A DNA stretch of 15,750 nt. Origin: a bacterium. Its GTDB lineage: Bacteria > Eisenbacteria > RBG-16-71-46. This document shows, piece after piece, positions 4,370 through 15,750 of the stretch; position 1 is the stretch's first letter; each line of letters begins with the position of its first letter. The stretch spans positions 1-15,750 of the forward strand of contig JAYWEM010000178.1 in NCBI GenBank assembly GCA_043779265.1, in the 5' to 3' direction. The translations under genes were made by a program, and so were the position numbers. The notes beneath the pieces are model-generated. The model did not search any database. It worked only from the letters and a program-made list of their open reading frames with translations, and was not told where the DNA came from.

Positions 4370-5692
4370 GTGCATCGCACTCAGAAGTACACGCTGGGCT
4401 TCGCCGCCGCGGCGATGGCCCTGATCGCCGCCTCCGCGGTGGTCACCTACATCGGTGTGCGGGACAGCTTCGAGCGCGAATTCACGCGCCGGTTGTCGGA
4501 CCTCGCTGAACTCGCCGCCTCGCAGGTGGGCCCCGAGGATCTCGAGGACGTGCGGCGGGCCGGCCCCGAGAGCACCGGCTGGCTCGCGCTCCAGGTCCAG
4601 TTCGAGTCGCTGCGCTCGAGCACCGATCTGTTCGATGTCTCGGTGGTCGACCTCGATCGGCGCGTGCTGTTCGATGTCCGAGAGCCCGAGGAGCGCCATG
4701 GCACGCCGAGTCGGATGGACACGGTGGCCAGCGCTCTGCTCGATACCGCGATCGCGGGCCGCGCCGTCGTCTCGGGCATCTACCGTGTCTCGGGTCGCGC
4801 CACGCGCGCGGCGCTGATGCCGGTGCGAGACGGGGCCTTTGCGGTGGGCGTGCTGGTCGCCGAGGCTCAGCCCACGTGGGACCGAGAGCTGCAGCGATTG
4901 TCCCAGAGACTCGCGCTGGTGGCGCTGCTCGGCATGCTGGCGGTGGCCGCGCTCGCGGCGTTGTTGGTCCGGGCGATCGGCTCGCAACTCTCGCTCGAGC
5001 ACCGCCTGTCGCGCTCGGAGAATCTCGCGGCGATGGGGCGCCTGACCGCGACGCTCGCACATGAGATCAAGAACCCGCTCGCCATCATCCGCGGATCGGC
5101 CAAGCGTTTGGGCAAGCTGGAGCCCGAGGCGCAGCGCATGACGGACTCGGTGATCGAGGAGGTCGACCGCCTGACCAGCACGGTGAGTCGCTACCTGCAG
5201 TTCGCGCGCGTCGGCGAGTCGGTGGGCCGAGGCGGCGATGCCGCGCTGACGATGCGCCAGACGCTCGACCTGCTCGAGGGCGAGTTCGGCTCGCGTCAGG
5301 CCAGGCTCGTTCGCGAGCTGGTCGAACCGCCCGCGTTCGTGCGCATGGACAACGAGGCGCTCAAGCAGGTGTGGCTCAATCTCGTGCTCAACGCACTCGA
5401 GGCCGTGCCGGCGGGCGGCACGGTGCGCGTTCGGATCGCGCTCTCGGGCCCCCTGCTCGAGGCCAGCGTGCAGGACGATGGCCCGGGCTTCCCGGCCGAG
5501 GTCCTGCGACGACTGGGCGAGCCCTTCCAGACGACCAAGGCGCAGGGAAGCGGCCTGGGGCTGTTCCTGTGCCGACGGCTGATCGAGGCCGCGGGTGGCC
5601 GGCTGACGGCCGAGAGCCCGCCCGGTGCAGGGGCCACCGTCCGGGTCAGCCTCCCGCTCGACACTGCATCGGATGCGCCGGGCGGCCGATGA
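4370..5692 (+). CDS. Membrane sensor histidine kinase (HisKA + HATPase_c, two TMs flanking an extracytoplasmic sensor domain)
   Basis: H-box LAHEIKNPL, N-box QVWLNLVLNA, G1 DDGPGF, F-box EPFQTTK, G2 GSGLGL. Start placed at in-frame GTG 4370 (GGAGG at 4352-4356, first TM follows directly) instead of 4220. Confidence 0.93.
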   Translation: MHRTQKYTLGFAAAAMALIAASAVVTYIGVRDSFEREFTRRLSDLAELAASQVGPEDLEDVRRAGPESTGWLALQVQFESLRSSTDLFDVSVVDLDRRVLFDVREPEERHGTPSRMDTVASALLDTAIAGRAVVSGIYRVSGRATRAALMPVRDGAFAVGVLVAEAQPTWDRELQRLSQRLALVALLGMLAVAALAALLVRAIGSQLSLEHRLSRSENLAAMGRLTATLAHEIKNPLAIIRGSAKRLGKLEPEAQRMTDSVIEEVDRLTSTVSRYLQFARVGESVGRGGDAALTMRQTLDLLEGEFGSRQARLVRELVEPPAFVRMDNEALKQVWLNLVLNALEAVPAGGTVRVRIALSGPLLEASVQDDGPGFPAEVLRRLGEPFQTTKAQGSGLGLFLCRRLIEAAGGRLTAESPPGAGATVRVSLPLDTASDAPGGR

Positions 5693-8160: not shown

Positions 8161-9291
8161 TCAGTTGCGGCGGCGGCGGCGTTCGAAGTCCTCGGGCTTA
8201 TCGATCGGCATCGCCTTGGCGGCTTCGATGCTGCGCTCGAGCAGCGCGCTGCGTCCCGCGTCCTTGGCGTCGGCCTTCAGATTGTCGAGCGCCAGGAGAT
8301 GGGCCCGCTGCAGGGCCTCGTGCGCCGGGGACTCGATGTCCGGCTTCACCCCGACGCCCTCCCAGTTGGTCTTGGTGACGGGGTTGATGGCGCGGCCGGT
8401 GGCGATGAACGCGGTGTGGTGCGGGGCGAGCCGGAACAGGCCGCCCGGATGCGCCGCACCCGCGGACGTGATCCCGACCACCGTGCCGAGCTTGTGCGAC
8501 TTCACGTTGTAGGCGAACTCCTCGGCGGCCGAGCCCGTCAGGCTGCTGGTGAGCACGTAGACGGGCTTGCCCGCGAGGCGCTTGCCGGGCACCTGCGATG
8601 CGGTGTGGAACTGGATGGTGCGATCGCCCTCACGCTCGTAGAAGTCGTTCAAGTGCAGGCGGTCGCCATCGGCGACGAGATACGTGGTGAGCGTCTGGAT
8701 CATGTCGGGGCTGCCGCCGCCGTTGCGCCTCAGGTCGACGATCAGAGCGTCGCAGTGGGAGAGGAACTGCATCGCCGCGACCGCGACCGGCTGCGCCTCG
8801 GGCGCGCCCGAGAACATGCGCAGGTCCAGATAGCCGACGTTGCCGGGCAGTCGGCGCACCTGCTCGAACCCGAAGTTGCGCATGCGCATCTCCTCGAGCT
8901 GGCGGGCGACCTCCTCGGGCGGCGCGTCATCATCGAGCTGTGCCGGGAACGGCTCCTGGCGGTAGTGCACGCGCATGTGGCCGTCGAACGTCACCGCCTG
9001 CATGTGCGCCGTCAGCGAGTCGGCGAGCACCCGGCCGCTGGTGATGTTGTCGTACTCGCGGGCCTGCAGCCGCTTGCGCAGCGCCTTGGCGAGCGTCGCG
9101 CCCTTGTCGGCGAACACGTAGCGCGCCTGCACCTGCACCATCAGCGACTCGACGACCGCCCGCGAGTAGGCGGCATCGACCGGCGTGTCGGAGTCGAGCG
9201 AGGAGCCCATGCCGGCCTGAGCGTGCAGCGACGACGCGGCGAACAACAGGCTGCCCGCGAGCAGCGGCAGCGTGAGAAGCATCGGTCTCAT
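8161..9291 (-). CDS. Secreted S41-family peptidase (IRBP-like subgroup)
   Basis: Signal peptide, NVGYLDLRMF, LIVDLRRNGGG, 'TGSAAEEFAY' (catalytic Ser motif) and 'TNWEGVGVKPDI'. GGAGGA SD; ATGA overlap with the TetR stop. Confidence 0.92.
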   Translation of the reverse strand: MRPMLLTLPLLAGSLLFAASSLHAQAGMGSSLDSDTPVDAAYSRAVVESLMVQVQARYVFADKGATLAKALRKRLQAREYDNITSGRVLADSLTAHMQAVTFDGHMRVHYRQEPFPAQLDDDAPPEEVARQLEEMRMRNFGFEQVRRLPGNVGYLDLRMFSGAPEAQPVAVAAMQFLSHCDALIVDLRRNGGGSPDMIQTLTTYLVADGDRLHLNDFYEREGDRTIQFHTASQVPGKRLAGKPVYVLTSSLTGSAAEEFAYNVKSHKLGTVVGITSAGAAHPGGLFRLAPHHTAFIATGRAINPVTKTNWEGVGVKPDIESPAHEALQRAHLLALDNLKADAKDAGRSALLERSIEAAKAMPIDKPEDFERRRRRN

Positions 9292-9932
9292 CGGTTGGTC
9301 CTCCGGGGATGGGGCTTCCGGCGTGTGCCGGGGGTTCGGGTCGGCCGCAGCCCCGCGAGGAGCAGGGCCACCAGAGAATCGGTACGGCGGACGATCTCGC
9401 TTCGGCGCCCGAGTTCTCGGACGCTGAGGCTGTAGGGAAGGAGCGAGTTGGTGGCGGTGACGAGCGAGGCGGCCTCGGCGCTGCCGCCCGGCCGCAGCTT
9501 CCCGGCGTTGGCCCCCTGAGCGAGGATCACCTTGAGCACCGAGGCCTCGGCGCGGAACTGCGCCGCTCGGCGCTCGAGCATCGGCTGGCGCATGGCGGCG
9601 AGCTTCTCGTCGATGCTGTTCGCGTGCTCTCTCGCGTAGTCGAAGCGCATGAGCACGCGTGCGCGCAGCGCGTCGCTCAGGCGCTCGGGTGCGCTGCCAC
9701 TTCCGGCGGCGATGATGCGCAGATGCGCGAGCACGTCCTCGGCCATGCGATCGATGCAGGCGAGTGCCACCTCATCCTTGCTCGGGAAGTGGAGGTAGAC
9801 CGAGCCCTTGCCGACGCCGGCCTCCTCGGCGACCTGGGCGATCGTCATGCGGCGGAAGCCGATCCGCGACAGCAGTCGATCCGCGGCGTCGAGCAACCGG
9901 GGGCGTACGGTGAGGTCCTTCGGGCGAGCCAT
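9288..9932 (-). CDS. TetR/AcrR-family transcriptional regulator
   Basis: MARPK...RLLDAADRLLSRIGFRRMTIAQVAEEAGVGKGSVYLHFPSKDEV is a canonical TetR HTH. The start is in-frame ATG 9932 (214 aa) rather than the ORF-track 10388. Confidence 0.93.
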   Translation of the reverse strand: MARPKDLTVRPRLLDAADRLLSRIGFRRMTIAQVAEEAGVGKGSVYLHFPSKDEVALACIDRMAEDVLAHLRIIAAGSGSAPERLSDALRARVLMRFDYAREHANSIDEKLAAMRQPMLERRAAQFRAEASVLKVILAQGANAGKLRPGGSAEAASLVTATNSLLPYSLSVRELGRRSEIVRRTDSLVALLLAGLRPTRTPGTRRKPHPRRTNR

Positions 9933-9959
9933 GGCTGGGGAGCCTCGTCGGGTGATGAG

Positions 9960-9982
9960 TGACCAGAATCGCGTTCTGGTCA
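9960..9982. promoter_or_regulatory. Palindromic operator, probably bound by the adjacent TetR
   Basis: Perfect inverted repeat TGACCAGAA-tcgcg-TTCTGGTCA, 27 nt upstream of the TetR start and abutting a -10-like CATACT on the minus strand (9987-9982). Confidence 0.75.
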
Positions 9983-10069
9983 GTATGACGGCTCGAGCCC
10001 CGAGAAGGTTGCAGCCCGAGGGGGTGGGATCACGAGCGCGGTGAGGCTCGGCCCCGGCGCAACAAGGGG

Positions 10070-10099
10070 TTGACACCGCCCCGCGCCGAGACTCAAGAT
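10070..10099 (+). promoter_or_regulatory. Putative rho promoter
   Basis: TTGACA at 10070-10075, an 18-nt spacer and CAAGAT at 10094-10099, implying a leader of about 245 nt. Confidence 0.5.
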
Positions 10100-10349
10100 T
10101 CTCTCCACGCGAGCGGTTCCTCACTGCTCGTGCCGGGCTCCGCAGCCCTGCGGCCGCCCGGCCCCGGACACTGCATCTCGCCAGTTCCATCGAGGCCCCA
10201 AGCACCTGCTGGACGTCTCGCGTCCGGCTCACCGAATTCCTACTCCCATACGGCCACCGGACCACGATGTCCGACCCACCGGCCCCTTTCGCCTCCGAGC
10301 GCCCACGGCGCCCGGTCCGCGTTCCCCTCAGCCCTCCGAGGTCCGTTCC

Positions 10350-11621
10350 ATGGAGTCGCAGGCCGCCGACACCCTCGAGCTGCAGCAACTGAAGGCCAAG
10401 ACGATGATCGAGCTACTCGCCATCGCCACCTCGCTCGAGGTGGTGGGGACGAGTGGCCTGCGCAAGCAGGAACTGATCTTCAAGCTCCTCGAGGCGCAGA
10501 CGGAGAAGAACGGCAACGTGTTCGCCGAGGGCGTGCTCGAGATCCTGCCGGAGGGCTACGGCTTCCTGCGATCGCCGGCGTACAACTACCTGCCGGGCCC
10601 CGACGACATCTACGTGTCGCCCTCGCAGATCAAGCGCTTCGATCTCCACACCGGCGACTCGGTCTCGGGTCAGGTGCGTCCTCCCAAGGAGGGCGAGCGT
10701 TTCTTCGCGCTGCTGAGGGTCGAGGCGATCAACTTCGAGAGCCCCGAGACCACCAAGGGCAAGATCCTGTTCGACAACCTGACGCCGCTCTACCCGAGCG
10801 AGAAGCTGAACCTCGAGAGCCGCGAACGCTGCATGGAGACGCGGATCATCGATCTGCTCGCGCCGATCGGGAAGGGGCAGCGGGCGCTGATCACCGCGCC
10901 GCCTCGCGCCGGCAAGACGATGCTGCTCCAGAAGCTCGCCAACGCCATCTCCGAGAACCACCCCGAGGTCGTGCTCATCGTTCTGTTGATCGACGAGCGC
11001 CCCGAGGAGGTGACCGACATGCAGAACTCGATCCAGGCCGAGGTCATCTCGAGCACGTTCGATGAGCCCGCCGAGCGCCATGTGCAGGTGGCCGAGATGG
11101 TGATCGAGAAGGCCAAGCGATTAGTCGAGCACAAGCGCGACGTGGTCATCCTGCTCGATTCGATCACGCGATTGGCACGCGCGCACAATGCGGTCGTGCC
11201 CCACTCGGGCAAGATCCTCTCGGGCGGTGTCGACTCCAATGCCCTGCAGCGCCCCAAGCGGTTCTTCGGCTCGGCCCGCAACATCGAGGATGGCGGCTCG
11301 CTCACGATCATCGCCACCGCGCTGATCGAGACGGGCTCGCGCATGGACGAGGTGATCTTCGAGGAGTTCAAGGGCACCGGGAACAGTGAGATCATCCTGG
11401 ACCGCAAGCTCGCCGAGAAGCGTATCTTCCCCGCGATCGACATCAATCGCTCGGGCACGCGCAAAGAGGAACTGCTCGTCACGCCCGACATGCTGGCGCG
11501 CATGTGGATCCTGCGGAAGTTCCTGAACGAGCTGAATCCCGTGGAGGCGCTGGAGTTCCTCACGTCACGCATGGGCGAGACCAAGACCAATCGCAAGTTC
11601 CTGGAGTCGATGAACCACTAG
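10350..11621 (+). CDS. rho: Transcription termination factor Rho
   Basis: 423 aa. Motifs: [42 protein letters not shown], Walker [66 protein letters not shown]. Confidence 0.99.
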
Positions 11622-11630
11622 GGGGCCCGC

Positions 11631-12392
11631 GTGGCGCTGCGAATCGTGACATTGGAAGAGGCGCCGCATCTGGAACCCGCGCTGTGGGACGAGTCGCTCC
11701 GGACCGTGTGGCCCGAGTTCATGCACCATGACCCGTCGGCCAGTTACTTCTTCGCCGACGGCGTGCTCGCCAAGCGGCACGGATACATGTTCGCCGCCTA
11801 CGAGGAGGCCGAGCCCGAACGGCTGGTGGCGCGCGCATTCAGCACGCCGGTGGCCCTCGGCGGGCCCGGGCGCGAGACGCTGCCCGAGGGCGGCTGGGAC
11901 ACCATCGTGCGCTGGGCGCATGCCGACCTCTTGGACGGCGCTGCGACCAATGCCGTGTCGGCGCTCGAGATCCTGGTGCGCCCCGATCGCCGCAGCGAGG
12001 GCCTCTCGTACCGCATGTTCGACGCGATGCGCGAGAACGCGCGGAAGCGCGGCGCGAGCCGGTTCGTGGCGCCCGTGCGCCCCAATGGCAAGCACCTGGA
12101 GCCGCACACGAGCATGCAGGAATACGCGTTGCGTACCCGTGCCGACGGTCTTCCGGCCGACGGTTGGCTGCGCGTGCACGCGAGAGTCGGCGGCAAGATC
12201 GTGAAAGTGGCCACCACCAGCTTCATCGTGCCGGGCTCGCTCGAACAGTGGCGCCACTGGACCGGCCTGCCATTCGATGCCAGCGGCTCCGTCGAGGTGC
12301 CGGGTGCGCTCAATCCGGTGACGGTGTCGCTCGAACACAACCACGCCGTCTACGTGGAGCCGAACGTCTGGGTGGAGCACTCGCTGGCATGA
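11631..12392 (+). CDS. GNAT-family N-acetyltransferase
   Basis: Motif A-like 'ALEILVRPDRRSEGLSYRMFDAMRENA', plus 'APVRPNGK' and 'DGWLRVHARVGG', which I recognise from a widespread uncharacterised GNAT subgroup. Starts 9 nt after the rho stop. Confidence 0.8.
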   Translation: MALRIVTLEEAPHLEPALWDESLRTVWPEFMHHDPSASYFFADGVLAKRHGYMFAAYEEAEPERLVARAFSTPVALGGPGRETLPEGGWDTIVRWAHADLLDGAATNAVSALEILVRPDRRSEGLSYRMFDAMRENARKRGASRFVAPVRPNGKHLEPHTSMQEYALRTRADGLPADGWLRVHARVGGKIVKVATTSFIVPGSLEQWRHWTGLPFDASGSVEVPGALNPVTVSLEHNHAVYVEPNVWVEHSLA

Positions 12393-12934
12393 GCGAGCTT
12401 CGACCGGGCGCTCGCGCCTCGGCGGTGCTGGTGCCGCTGTGGCGCGATGCCGACGGCGCCTGGCGGCTGGTGGTCGTGCGGCGCACCGAGGGCGGCGCAC
12501 ACAGCGGGCAGTTGGCGTTCCCCGGTGGCGTGTGCGAGCCGCGAGATGGTTCGACGATCGAGACCGCGTTGAGAGAGGCCGAGGAGGAGATCGGTCTGCT
12601 GCGCTCCTCGGTGACCACGCTCGCCGAGTTGCCGCCGGTCGGCACGCACACCACCGGGTTCCTGATCGCGCCGGTACTCGCTCGCATCGAGCGTCCGAGC
12701 GAGTGGCGGCTCGCCTCGGCCGAGGTGGCCGAAGTGTTCGAGCCGCCGATCGATCCGTGGTTCGAGCCCGATGCGAGGCACTTCGCCGATGACCTCGCGC
12801 CGCCGCCCTGGGCCGGCATCCCGCTGCCCTACTACGCCATCGGCGCGCACCGGCTATGGGGTGCGAGCGAGCGAATCCTGACGCCGCTCTTGGCGAGGAT
12901 CCGCGACGGGGAGTGGCCCGATCTGAGGCGGTGA
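12389..12934 (+). CDS. Nudix hydrolase, CoA pyrophosphatase (NudL/PCD1-like)
   Basis: 'SAVLVPL...RRTEGGAHSGQLAFPGG' CoAse motif, Nudix box GGVCEPRDGSTIETALREAEEEIGL and C-terminal 'LWGAS'. Start at ATG 12389 (ATGA overlap with the GNAT stop), 181 aa. Confidence 0.9.
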   Translation: MSELRPGARASAVLVPLWRDADGAWRLVVVRRTEGGAHSGQLAFPGGVCEPRDGSTIETALREAEEEIGLLRSSVTTLAELPPVGTHTTGFLIAPVLARIERPSEWRLASAEVAEVFEPPIDPWFEPDARHFADDLAPPPWAGIPLPYYAIGAHRLWGASERILTPLLARIRDGEWPDLRR

Positions 12935-12957
12935 ATCGGGCTGAGAGCGGCCTCGGA

Positions 12958-13308
12958 GGCTCGGCTCGCAGCATCGAAGTCGGAGGCTCACTGACAATCA
13001 TCTCCACGGCGCTGATTTAGACGGGCTCGCGCATGGACGAAGTGACCTTCGAGAAGTGAAGGGCACCGGCAGTTGTGGGGTCGTGCTCGACCGCGGGTCC
13101 GCCGAGAAGGGCAAATCCCCGCGATCAAGCTCAGTCGCTCGGGGACGCGCAAAGAGGAAGTGCTCTTAGCGCCGAAATGCTGGTGCGCATGTAGATCCTG
13201 CGGAAATCCCTGAACGAACTGAGTCCCATGGAGGCGTTGAAGTTCCTCACCTCGCGCATGGGAAAGACCAAGATCAATCGCAAGTTCCTCCAGGCGATGA
13301 ACTCGTAG
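12958..13308 (+). pseudogene. rho: Degenerate duplicate of the rho 3' end (last 118 codons)
   Basis: Aligns by hand to 11268-11621 at about 81% identity (about 67 differences in 354 nt). It has three 1-nt deletions, premature TAG stops at 13018-13020 and 13192-13194, and ends at the equivalent TAG (..MNS* versus ..MNH*). Confidence 0.95.
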
Positions 13309-13435
13309 CCGCATGGTCGTTGACCGAGTCGCGCGAGCGTCAAGAGGGCGAGAGCCCGCCGGCACGGATCTCCCAGGGCATCTCAGTGGACCAATCCGCC
13401 ACCGTATTGCGATGGCATACATCAAGTGAAATGCC

Positions 13436-13465
13436 TTGACGCAAACACATCGCGAAGCGCAGCCT
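13436..13465 (+). promoter_or_regulatory. Putative promoter of the S8 protease gene
   Basis: TTGACG at 13436-13441, an 18-nt spacer and CAGCCT at 13460-13465, 43 nt upstream of ATG 13509. Confidence 0.4.
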
Positions 13466-13508
13466 CCGCGAAGTGGTTCTCGTCAAGCATTCGCTGAGGG
13501 GGCTGACC

Positions 13509-15718
13509 ATGTCCGAGCTTCGTCGTGATGCGCTCGCGGTCGCACTAATCGTGTTGGCCGCGACACCAGCTGCAGCCGTCCAACTTCGTTGGGGGGGGCG
13601 AGGGTGTTCGGAAACGACATACTCGTGTCGCCAGATTCAAGCCTTGCTCTCACTCTCGAGGTAGTGAAGGAGGAAGCAAATGGGCCGATTGACGGCGTCT
13701 ATTTGCTTTGGATTGGTGACGGAAAGCTAGAAGTCCGTTCGCCGGTCGGCGTGCTGACCGAACCCCGCAGTGACGGGTCGCCGTTGAGTCCCGAAGCTTT
13801 CTCAGATGCATCGAGCGAGCGCACCAGTATCGATCTCAATGGGCCTAGCAGCGCGAGTACGATTCCGTACCATCTCAGGGTCATGAGCGGCTCCGCATTC
13901 ACGGTCTGGGCTGTCGCGGTGCGTGACGGGATGCCGGTCAGCCTGGCCGAGCGGGCGACACGCATCGTGGCTATCAACGGCGGCGTGGAGGGGCCCTTTG
14001 CGCCCGCTGTGACGGCAGTTCGGCCAGTACGGGCCGACGGGGGAGTTGAGGTCGAGGTTTCGGGTGCCATGCTTGGCACGGTAAGGGACCTGAGGCTGCT
14101 GACGACTGACATGAATGTGATTGTTCCCGATTGGTCCAGAACTGAGACGGGAAGTCTTCGATTCTGGCTCGCCAACGATGTCGCAATGCGAGTTCGTTTC
14201 GTGCAGGTCAGGGACTCTGCTGGGCGTGGTTCGGTCGAGCCCTGCGATACTCGTGCCGAGGTGCATCCTCCAGTGAAGAATCAGGTGCTGGCGCGATTGC
14301 GCGAGGGGTACACCGTCACGTCCCTAGGGGCCCTGAAAGACCTCGCCGACGATGTGAAGTCGGTGGGTTGGACTGTTCCACACAGCCGAGTCGGTCAAGC
14401 GAGGAATGAAGAGCGATACCCAGATTTTGCACTGGTCAACCCATCTGCTGCGGCCACCATTCCCGAACTTTTGAACCGAGTGCGTGCCCAACCAGGGGTA
14501 GCGTCCGCTGACTCACTCACAGAGGGGCAGCTCCTATCTACTCCAACTGACCCGCGCTGGAAATATCAGTGGACGCTTCGCACGAGCGCGTTGCCATACT
14601 GCAACGGCACAATCAATGGCCCCATGCCTCCGCTAGTCTCCGGCGGCTCGGTCAACGCCAATCTCGCATGGGACTATCCAGCCAATGGCCCACCCGTGGG
14701 CATCGGCGTGGTTGACTCGGGCATCAACGGCAACCATGAGGACTTCTTCGGAGTGCTTTCCGGACTTCCGCATATGCGGTCCACCCTGACTCCAGGCTTC
14801 AATGCCGCAATCGATCCGTACCCGTTGCTGGACTCGGCAGCGCCTCTCAACACAGGCGGACACGGAACGCCAGTGGCTGGCATCGCTGCGGGCGTGACAG
14901 GCTTCGAAGAGCCGTACAGCCCTGGAGTCGGTACCGCCAGCGCTTCTCGTTACGGGTTGCCCGTGTCGCTGAAGTGCTACTTCACCAACGGCGCGACAAT
15001 TGTTGGAATGGCTGAAGCGCTAGACGCGGTTGTTCAACACTCCAATCTGATCAGAGTCGCGAACGTCAGTCTCGGGTTCAATACGCCGAGTCCAACTGAG
15101 CGAGCACTGCTGGCCTCCACGCTCCGGCGCGCGTTTCTGGGCGGATCTCTGATTGTGGCAGCCATTGGAAACGACGGGGCAACAGTCGCCAAGTTCCCGG
15201 CGGCACTTTCTGATCTGGTCGTCGCAGTGGGGGCGGTCGACTGGAATAACAGCCGATGGCTGAACTCGTCCACCTTGCAGCCCCATTGCTCAGTGGTTCC
15301 GTTTCCGATTCATGGGAGCAGCTCTGGTCCCTGGCTGGACCTCATGGCCCCAGGCGGAGTTGCGGTACACGCTCCTTCAGGCAGCGGGAGTAATCAGGAA
15401 TTGGTACCCGTTCAGCTGGGCTGCAATCTGTGTCTGTCCTACCCCAATTCGAATATATCCGGATTCGGCGGCACGTCGGCCGCCGCACCAGTGGTCTCCG
15501 GGGCAGCCGCTTGGCTATTGCACGTGATGCCGGATCTCACAGCAGAGGACGCTGGGGAGGTTCTCCGTAGAAGCGCGACCGACGTTGGGCCTCAGGGATT
15601 CGACATCTTCTACGGTCATGGCAGCATAGACATGTGGGAGGCGACGAAATTCCTGTCAGTTTGCAGAATGATGGGACCCCCGCAGGGCCAGCTTTGCAGA
15701 ATCATTCCCCCCCTCTGA
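13509..15718 (+). pseudogene. Secreted S8 subtilisin-like serine protease; frameshifted at G8 (13591-13598) and probably interrupted at 15654
   Basis: The 13589-15718 ORF has an intact triad: D (IGVVDSGI), H (GHGTPVAGIAAG), oxyanion N (AAIGNDG) and S (GGTSAAAPVVSG). The SD (GAGGGG), ATG 13509 and signal peptide MSELRRDALAVALIVLAATPAAA lie in a different frame that joins the long ORF if the G8 run gains one G. The family call is firm; pseudogene status is less certain. Confidence 0.8.
13591..13598 (+). repeat. G8 homopolymer at the frameshift point of the S8 protease
   Basis: cgtt-GGGGGGGG-cgagg lies immediately after the predicted signal peptide. Confidence 0.85.
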
Positions 15719-15750
15719 GCTGAGATTTTCAGAACCATTCCCCCCCCCGC
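15654..15750 (+). mobile_element. Probable end of a Mu/Tn7/Tn5053/IS21-superfamily DDE transposon (TGT terminus plus repeated transposase-binding sites); continues beyond the window
   Basis: TGTCAG is followed by three imperfect direct repeats starting at 15660, 15693 and 15726 (TTTGCAGAATGATGGGACCCCC / TTTGCAGAATCATTCCCCCCC / TTTTCAGAACCATTCCCCCCC), an exact 33-bp period. No transposase is visible in the window. Confidence 0.7.

What the first reader, a model, noticed from the sequence alone, without database searches (positions are those of the whole stretch)
11268..13308. Displaced, decayed 3' end of rho brackets a GNAT-Nudix cassette: possible 3'-end-replacement integration into rho
Seen: 12958-13308 is a direct repeat of rho 11268-11621 (~81% identity by hand, 3 single-base deletions, 2 nonsense codons), 1690 bp downstream, with exactly two intact genes in between. 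About 19 codons differ only synonymously, including several third-position C<->G swaps (ctc/ctg, acc/acg, ggg/ggc, ggc/ggg, acg/acc), and there are conservative changes (II->VV, ESMNH->QAMNS). This hints that the copy first diverged as a working rho allele and decayed later, although the synonymous excess is modest. Known: some elements integrate inside a gene and supply a replacement 3' end, leaving the old end as a pseudogene (e14 prophage in E. coli icd, leaving icdC). Inference: a circle carrying a rho C-terminus plus GNAT and Nudix recombined into rho, swapped the C-terminal part of its ATPase domain and placed the cargo in the rho transcript. No integrase is present, so this is either an eroded element or homology-driven capture. 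I do not know rho as a described integration target of this kind.
Basis: partly seen in the sequence, partly recalled or inferred. Interest (0 to 1): 0.75.

Follow-up and report, generated by a model that had tools for sequence, protein, structure and literature searches.

The report
Displaced rho tail marks gene capture
A dead copy of the last third of the transcription-terminator gene rho, lying 1.7 kb behind the working gene, is the scar of a recombination event that stitched together two alternative gene neighbourhoods seen separately in sister species, and a second bacterium of the same family carries the same kind of scar.

Summary
The repeat is real: rho 11268-11621 vs 12958-13308, 81% identical, with 3 deletions and 2 stops. 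One unitig spans it. Two congeners carry the two halves separately: G001 has rho followed directly by the S8 peptidase, with a spacer homologous to the one behind the copy; G002 has rho-GNAT-Nudix and no copy. The copy is sister to this genome's own rho (100/98) and mostly decayed neutrally, so the replacement end is not foreign. The cargo is not mobile-element cargo: the Nudix gene lies in the rho-rpmE interval of 15 of 81 related loci. That interval is a hypervariable hotspot, with no integrase among 70 of its genes scanned. A second, independent scar with the same anatomy exists in G054 (2 of 81 loci). Best reading: integrase-free capture, anchored by homology in rho's 3' end, between close relatives. 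Direction and a shared breakpoint are not shown. It resembles C-terminal displacement in T6SS/Rhs loci, not e14. The scan noted such scars at other genes before.

The parts
10350..11621 (+). Intact rho, transcription termination factor (423 aa, ends MNH-stop)
   Evidence: TIGR00767 698 bits over cut-off 509
11268..11621 (+). Live 3' segment of rho (codons 307-stop), first copy of the direct repeat
   Evidence: short branch 0.016 and omega about 0.1 since the split
11631..12392 (+). 253-aa GNAT-like gene, 9 nt behind the rho stop; in 2 of 89 family genomes (this one and G002, both directly behind rho)
   Evidence: fold label weak
12389..12934 (+). 181-aa Nudix hydrolase (CoA-pyrophosphatase-like, below cut-off), overlapping the GNAT stop; recurrent resident of the rho-rpmE interval
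   Evidence: cluster c0 in 15 of 81 loci
12935..12957 (+). 23-bp junction between the Nudix stop and the start of the copy: inferred non-homologous join
   Evidence: no significant similarity to rho upstream of codon 307 (rank 408 and 888 of 1207 positions)
12958..13308 (+). Decayed rho 3' end (codons 307-stop, ends MNS-stop), 3 deletions, 2 nonsense codons
13309..13508 (+). Spacer homologous over its whole length to the rho-to-S8 spacer of congener G001
   Evidence: 57% identity, score 103 vs shuffles 50.5+-9.4, 0 of 1000 reach it; first 100 bp alone 2 of 1000
13509..15653 (+). Low-GC (about 60%) S8 subtilase gene with signal-peptide-like start, orthologue of the gene directly behind rho in G001; frame shifts at a G8 run (13591-13598), 3' part cut by an IS
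15654..15750 (+). Left end of an insertion sequence (repeated on C172, C138, C160; IstA/IstB-like ORFs on C138; IS21 family label recalled), where the contig breaks

Best explanation
The rho-rpmE interval of this family is a gene-turnover hotspot. Two versions of it coexisted in close relatives of this genome's lineage: rho-S8(-X)-rpmE and rho-GNAT-Nudix. DNA carrying a rho 3' end plus GNAT-Nudix entered a rho-S8 cell. One homologous crossover in rho anchored it, and its other end, just behind Nudix, joined the chromosome non-homologously at rho codon 307. This could be homology-facilitated illegitimate recombination of a linear piece, or single-crossover integration of a 1.69-kb circle; the two give the same product. 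Rho stayed intact with a near-identical end, the two genes landed directly behind its stop codon, and the old end, still attached to its S8 spacer, decayed. Shown: the two parental arrangements, the ancestry of the copy, the hotspot, a second case. Inferred: the event itself, its direction, and the enzymes (housekeeping recombination, no dedicated recombinase).
For: G001 = rho-S8-X-rpmE and G002 = rho-GNAT-Nudix-Kef genes without a copy. The copy ends exactly at the stop codon, keeps G001's last codon, and is followed by a same-length homologous spacer. It shares 15 derived sites with the live end vs 3 with G001 (all in codon 423) and 3 with G002; 100/98 support. Interval length is 59-9228 bp in the 47 of 81 loci that reach rpmE, with 46 different first genes in 74 loci. 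None of 70 interval genes scanned is an integrase or transposase. Second case, G054 (another genus): rho(TAG)-DUF2867/SDR gene-rho remnant(TGA)-c39. The remnant is closest to its own rho (70 of 77 nt), and remnant end, spacer and c39 align at 77% to the rho end, spacer and first gene of congener G053. In both cases the remnant keeps the commoner end of its clade (TCG; TGA in 12 of the 15 genus-g2 loci listed), which fits it being the old end. The mechanism is described for T6SS/Rhs loci (PMC5361080, passages) and for variable segments (PMC2884548, passages).
Against: No donor or recipient of this genome's own species was found: the clade-specific pattern scan of metagenomes gave 0 hits, and G001 and G002 are only about 79% ANI-like from it and from each other. 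The coexistence of both versions in one lineage is therefore inferred. Polarity of gene gain toward the rho end was not significant (9 vs 6 discordant intervals, p 0.61; 44 vs 34 unshared genes). The low-GC S8 block looks more foreign than the cassette (60.5% vs 70.5% GC). As I recall it, homology-facilitated illegitimate recombination usually deletes recipient DNA rather than duplicating the anchor. Only 2 of 81 loci show a scar.
Confidence: 0.5

Rival explanations
1. Same mechanism, opposite direction: rho-GNAT-Nudix was resident. A piece from a rho-S8 relative recombined in through homology on the rpmE side, and its left end, which happened to include the donor's rho tail, was joined just behind Nudix. 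The copy would then be a carried-in passenger, not a displaced original.
For: Nudix near rho is widespread in the family (15 of 81 loci, 12 genera). S8 is low-GC and has close orthologues in only 2 of 41 genomes. In G055 the genes c41-c4-c26 are adjacent, so in G054 the remnant block could be the insertion. No significant polarity.
Against: A donor end lying inside 350 bp of near-identical rho should recombine homologously and give a clean swap, not a duplicate (inference). In both cases the remnant carries the clade-typical gene end.
Confidence: 0.25
2. Local tandem duplication (rho tail plus cassette) followed by decay. The duplicate tail later served as a landing pad for the S8 block, or the second cassette copy was deleted.
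For: The copy is sister to the live gene, the live branch is very short, and copy-branch omega 0.63-0.81 is not distinguishable from neutral.
Against: It needs a second event that restores exactly G001's last codon and full-length spacer, and the same two-step coincidence in G054/G053. No remnant of a second GNAT or Nudix lies behind the copy.
Confidence: 0.13
3. Eroded site-specific element of the e14/icd type, or a cassette moved in trans by a recombinase that targets rho near codon 307.
For: Same gross layout as icd-e14-icdC (PMC13626634, passages). One lenient alignment starts the G054 remnant at codon 307 too.
Against: That shared start is not significant: 29 of 300 control windows score as well, and stricter scoring starts at codon 364. 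No integrase among 70 interval genes. The cargo is host-like and occurs without scars in G002 and G055. The replacement end is not foreign.
Confidence: 0.09
4. Assembly artefact.
For: Metagenome-assembled contig; no long reads seen. The unitig depth is lower here (10.5-10.9) than upstream of rho (14.4-14.7).
Against: One unbranched unitig covers the live end, cassette, copy and S8 with 0 differences in 2 runs of one study. The copies are 19% diverged. An analogous structure exists in G054.
Confidence: 0.02

Closest known systems
C-terminal / effector displacement in T6SS and Rhs loci by homology-facilitated illegitimate recombination (Kirchberger et al. 2017, PMC5361080; passages read)
   Same: A conserved upstream stretch is the anchor, new genes land directly behind it, the old 3' end and its downstream gene are pushed back, no integrase.
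   Different: There the swapped 3' ends are variable toxin domains under diversifying selection. Here the anchor is the housekeeping gene rho, the swapped end is near-identical, and the cargo is ordinary enzymes.
Integrase-free HGT hotspots between core genes (Oliveira et al. 2017, PMC5635113; passages read)
   Same: High gene turnover between two core genes (rho, rpmE) with no mobility genes among those scanned.
   Different: Their model is double homologous crossover, which swaps content cleanly. The scar here needs one non-homologous join and adds content instead of replacing it. Their hotspots are defined within species; this one is seen across species and genera.
e14 prophage in E. coli icd, leaving icdC (PMC13626634; passages read)
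   Same: Intact gene, insert, then a pseudogene copy of the gene's 3' end in direct repeat.
   Different: e14 is a 15-kb excisable prophage with site-specific recombination. Here the insert is 1.3 kb of host-like genes, with no integrase, no demonstrated fixed site, and a replacement end from the host's own lineage.

Membership tests
e14/icd-type integrative element | Target gene intact, with displaced 3' fragment in direct repeat beyond the insert | tested here: met
e14/icd-type integrative element | Integrase encoded in the insert | tested here: not met
   only GNAT-like and Nudix genes in the insert; none among 70 of 89 called interval genes of 19 relatives
e14/icd-type integrative element | Fixed crossover site shared by independent insertions | tested here: inconclusive
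   G054 start at codon 307 only under lenient scoring, 29 of 300 controls reach it; firm start codon 364
e14/icd-type integrative element | Element-borne, foreign replacement end | tested here: not met
   copy and live end are sisters, 100/98
e14/icd-type integrative element | Excision / circular form | tested here: inconclusive
   no joint from live end to copy among the joints listed (14 not shown); contigs only, rare forms are dropped
HFIR-type C-terminal displacement | Homologous anchor on one side, non-homologous join on the other | tested here: met
   anchor = rho tail; junction 12935-12957 has no rho homology; anatomy only, the event is inferred
HFIR-type C-terminal displacement | Both parental arrangements exist in relatives | tested here: met
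   G001 and G002 for this locus. For G054: G053 has the empty side; a rho-c41 arrangement without remnant was not found among 81 loci
HFIR-type C-terminal displacement | Polarised addition next to the anchor | tested here: inconclusive
   9 vs 6, p 0.61
HFIR-type C-terminal displacement | RecA dependence and DNA uptake | not testable with these tools
   recA and a ComEC-family gene are present, but ComEC also rings in 10 of 14 control genomes
Core-gene-flanked HGT hotspot | High gene turnover between two core genes | tested here: met
   319 called genes in 160 clusters over 81 loci; 59-189 bp intervals in the two outgroup families sampled
Core-gene-flanked HGT hotspot | Raised homologous recombination in the flanking core genes | tested here: inconclusive
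   5' and 3' rho trees differ in best topology but neither is rejected; no within-species sample

The most novel reading that the evidence does not exclude
Gene-end-anchored capture is the routine way genes enter the rho-rpmE hotspot of this uncultured family. Small pieces or circles made of a rho tail plus one or two neighbouring genes insert by a single crossover, keep rho intact and place the cargo under rho's transcription. Most scars are then erased, which would explain why the first gene behind rho differs in most genomes. Possibly a host recombinase prefers a site near codon 307.
Probability: 0.2. Interest if true: 0.75.

Novelty: new variant of a known kind. Interest (0 to 1): 0.45.

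Why it matters
Many bacterial gene-turnover hotspots have no integrase, and the clean double-crossover model explains swapping but not growth of their content. This locus catches an additive event with both parental arrangements still visible in sister species, and it recurs independently at the same gene in another genus. That gives a concrete, testable case that the tail of a housekeeping gene can serve as the anchor for integrase-free gene capture. It says nothing new about Rho's function: the swapped tail is near-identical.

Tried and rejected
Clade-specific rho-end pattern in metagenome contigs: 0 hits. 80 metagenome loci with GNAT relatives plus G025's: none showed rho or the Nudix gene nearby. 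Extra rho matches in 5 family genomes (G050, G056, G065, G070, G081) were paralogues, split contigs or, in G070, a rho-to-paralogue junction at a contig end that looks like a misassembly; none was a tandem tail. The protein search of 89 family genomes missed the G054 remnant; only the DNA self-comparison found it. A phylum-wide DNA search (206 genomes) could not separate remnants from the rho paralogue and scored only 3 candidates per genome: uninformative. A weak self-match in G002 lies inside an intact Kef-type gene and was rejected. Shared breakpoint at codon 307 in both cases: not significant. Polarity of gene gain: not significant. Species tree of G000/G001/G002: unresolved; marker genes were missing in G002 and fragment identities were about 78-80% for all pairs. 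Fortuitous homology between the Nudix end and rho guiding the join: no. A scan of 3225 ORF ends of the own genome gave 17 hit rows; apart from rho they looked like paralogue arrays or shared protein tails and were not followed up. Promoter scan: no sigma-70-type site in 10000-13700. No RNA holder listed. Literature: searches listed no paper describing rho as such a target (listings and abstract starts only); and one search were listings only. No supplements were read; tables of integration targets in such supplements could list rho.

Full report
Observation. The window is contig C178 of a 3.43-Mb, 68% GC genome from a sediment metagenome. Rho (10350-11621, TIGR00767) is followed by a 253-aa gene, a Nudix gene and a decayed copy of rho codons 307 to stop (12958-13308). 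The copy is 81.1% identical to the live segment, with three one-base deletions and two TAG codons; 19 codons differ synonymously and 33 non-synonymously. One unitig with no differences spans 11393-15682 in 2 of 3 runs, both from one study and possibly the source sample.

The two halves exist separately in sister species. The genus has two other genomes in the collection. G001 has rho followed directly by an orthologue of the S8 peptidase that follows the copy here, then one more secreted-type gene and rpmE. G002 has rho-GNAT-Nudix followed by Kef-type genes and no copy. The spacer behind the copy aligns end to end with the spacer behind G001's rho (about 200 bp each, 57% identity, 0 of 1000 shuffles reach the score). 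At the last codon the copy matches G001 (TCG), whereas the live gene matches G002 (CAC). The window is therefore a mosaic: rho-GNAT-Nudix joined to rho tail-S8. The three genomes are about equally distant (fragment identity 78-80%; 35 three-way fragments), so the species tree does not give the order of events.

Ancestry of the copy. Over codons 307-423 the copy shares 15 sites with the live gene against G001 and G002, 3 with G001 (all codon 423) and 3 with G002; 41 sites are unique to the copy and 5 to the live gene. In a 17-row tree it is sister to the live end (100/98), and grouping it with G001 or G002 is rejected (AU p 0.017, 0.018). Pairwise omega is 0.45-0.59 with a modest synonymous excess (p 0.006-0.043). 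After polarising (10 ambiguous sites set aside), the copy's branch has omega 0.63-0.81, not different from neutral (p 0.14-0.33), and the live branch about 0.1. So both ends come from this genome's own lineage, and most of the divergence is decay. The best trees for rho codons 197-306 and 307-423 differ (G000+G001 vs G000+G002), but no alternative is rejected.

The cargo is not element-like. GNAT-Nudix has 70.5% GC and GC3 of 0.87-0.88; the S8 region has 60.5% GC and GC3 of 0.65. The GNAT-like gene occurs in 2 of 89 family genomes, both behind rho. The Nudix orthologue lies in the rho-downstream interval of 15 of 81 loci, in 12 genera. Those 81 loci are this window, 78 of the 88 other family genomes and 2 outgroups; 47 reach rpmE and 34 are cut short. 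The interval is 59-9228 bp long and holds 319 heuristically called genes in 160 clusters, with 46 different first genes in 74 loci; the two outgroup loci have 59 and 189 bp (the gene caller under-calls low-GC genes). Of 89 genes called in the first 19 relatives' loci, 70 were scanned against Pfam and none was an integrase or transposase. This is the profile of an integrase-free hotspot between core genes (PMC5635113, passages).

A second case. Comparing each genome's own rho tail with its interval, and an nhmmer profile over 344 kb of intervals, found remnants in 2 of 81 loci: this one (E 3e-75) and G054 of another genus (E 2.5e-19). The next interval hit had E 0.1, and the best hit in 699 kb of control DNA had E 0.029. 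G054 reads rho(TCC TAG), a 490-aa SDR/DUF2867 gene, a rho remnant ending TCC TGA, gene c39, three more genes and rpmE. The remnant has an internal deletion between short repeats and is closest to G054's own rho (70 of 77 nt). Its end, spacer and c39 align at 77% to the rho end, spacer and first gene of congener G053. The anatomy is the same as in the window. A lenient alignment started this remnant at codon 307 as well, but 29 of 300 control windows scored as high and stricter scoring starts it at codon 364, so a shared site is not shown.

Mechanism. One homologous crossover in the rho tail plus one non-homologous join just behind the cargo's stop codon produces this structure in a single step from two coexisting versions of the interval. 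Linear homology-facilitated illegitimate recombination and single-crossover integration of a small circle give the same product and cannot be told apart here. A donor end inside rho should have recombined cleanly, and both remnants keep the clade-typical gene end. However, a test for rho-proximal gene gain was not significant (9 vs 6 of 38 complete intervals, p 0.61), and S8 is the more foreign-looking block. Local duplication (0.13) needs a second precise event in both genomes. An eroded e14-type element (0.09) lacks an integrase, a foreign replacement end and a proven fixed site.

Comparison with what is known. It works like the displacement described for T6SS effector-immunity and Rhs loci (PMC5361080, passages; also PMC2884548, passages), but at a housekeeping gene and with a near-identical swapped end. 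It looks like icd-e14-icdC (PMC13626634, passages) but fails that family's integrase and foreign-end tests. Four searches (listings and abstract starts only) showed no report of rho as such a target; supplements were not read. Earlier notes of this scan describe similar integrase-free displaced gene ends at gyrB, dld, rtcB, dut and other genes in other genomes; I did not test them, and they are not used as support.

Verdict. The feature is real, recurrent in the family and unusually well bracketed by both parental states. It is a new variant of a known kind of recombination scar, not a new mobile element. Interest 0.45.

Noticed in passing
window 13591-13598; L031 about 4798-4805 (G001): Both orthologous S8 peptidase genes have a run of eight G just after the signal-peptide-like start, and both change frame there in the same direction. 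Runs of 8 or more G/C number only 58 in the G000 genome. Possible phase variation or slippage control of a secreted protease.
   Followed up: partly
window 15654-15750; genome contigs C172, C138, C160: Left end of an IS with IstA/IstB-like ORFs (IS21-like, label recalled) cuts the S8 gene. The missing S8 3' part was not found elsewhere in the assembly; rpmE is on C133 at 416.
   Followed up: partly
L304 1832-2116 (G054:C46): Second rho 3' remnant with an internal deletion between two short repeats, followed by the gene that is rho-adjacent in G053.
   Followed up: yes
L031 rho codons 375-423 (G001): G001's rho C-terminus is unusually divergent (70-76% aa identity in the last window vs 91% for G000-G002; branch 0.31), which may itself reflect an earlier end replacement or relaxed selection.
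   Followed up: no
genome C125:7966-8733 and most family genomes: A second rho paralogue, about 55% identical over residues 164-419 and lacking similarity to the N-terminal part, is present across the family; some genomes have a third.
   Followed up: no
L037 4699-5757 (G003): In the same interval a different, canonical GNAT is fused to the Nudix orthologue, so acetyltransferase and this Nudix pair up independently twice.
   Followed up: no
window 8161-9929 and L043: The TetR-S41 peptidase pair upstream of rho here lies downstream of rho in G010 and is absent or partial elsewhere, so the upstream side of rho is variable too.
   Followed up: no
L173 36-1601 (G070:C214): Rho residues 4-386 run in frame into a paralogue-type segment (residues 275-418) at a contig end; probably a chimeric assembly.
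   Followed up: partly
L011 (G017 rho): One in-frame TAG inside rho, probably an assembly error.
   Followed up: no
window 9000-10550 vs 11393-15682: Unitig depth 14.4-14.7 upstream of rho vs 10.5-10.9 downstream; could be a second strain with another rho-downstream version, or noise.
   Followed up: no
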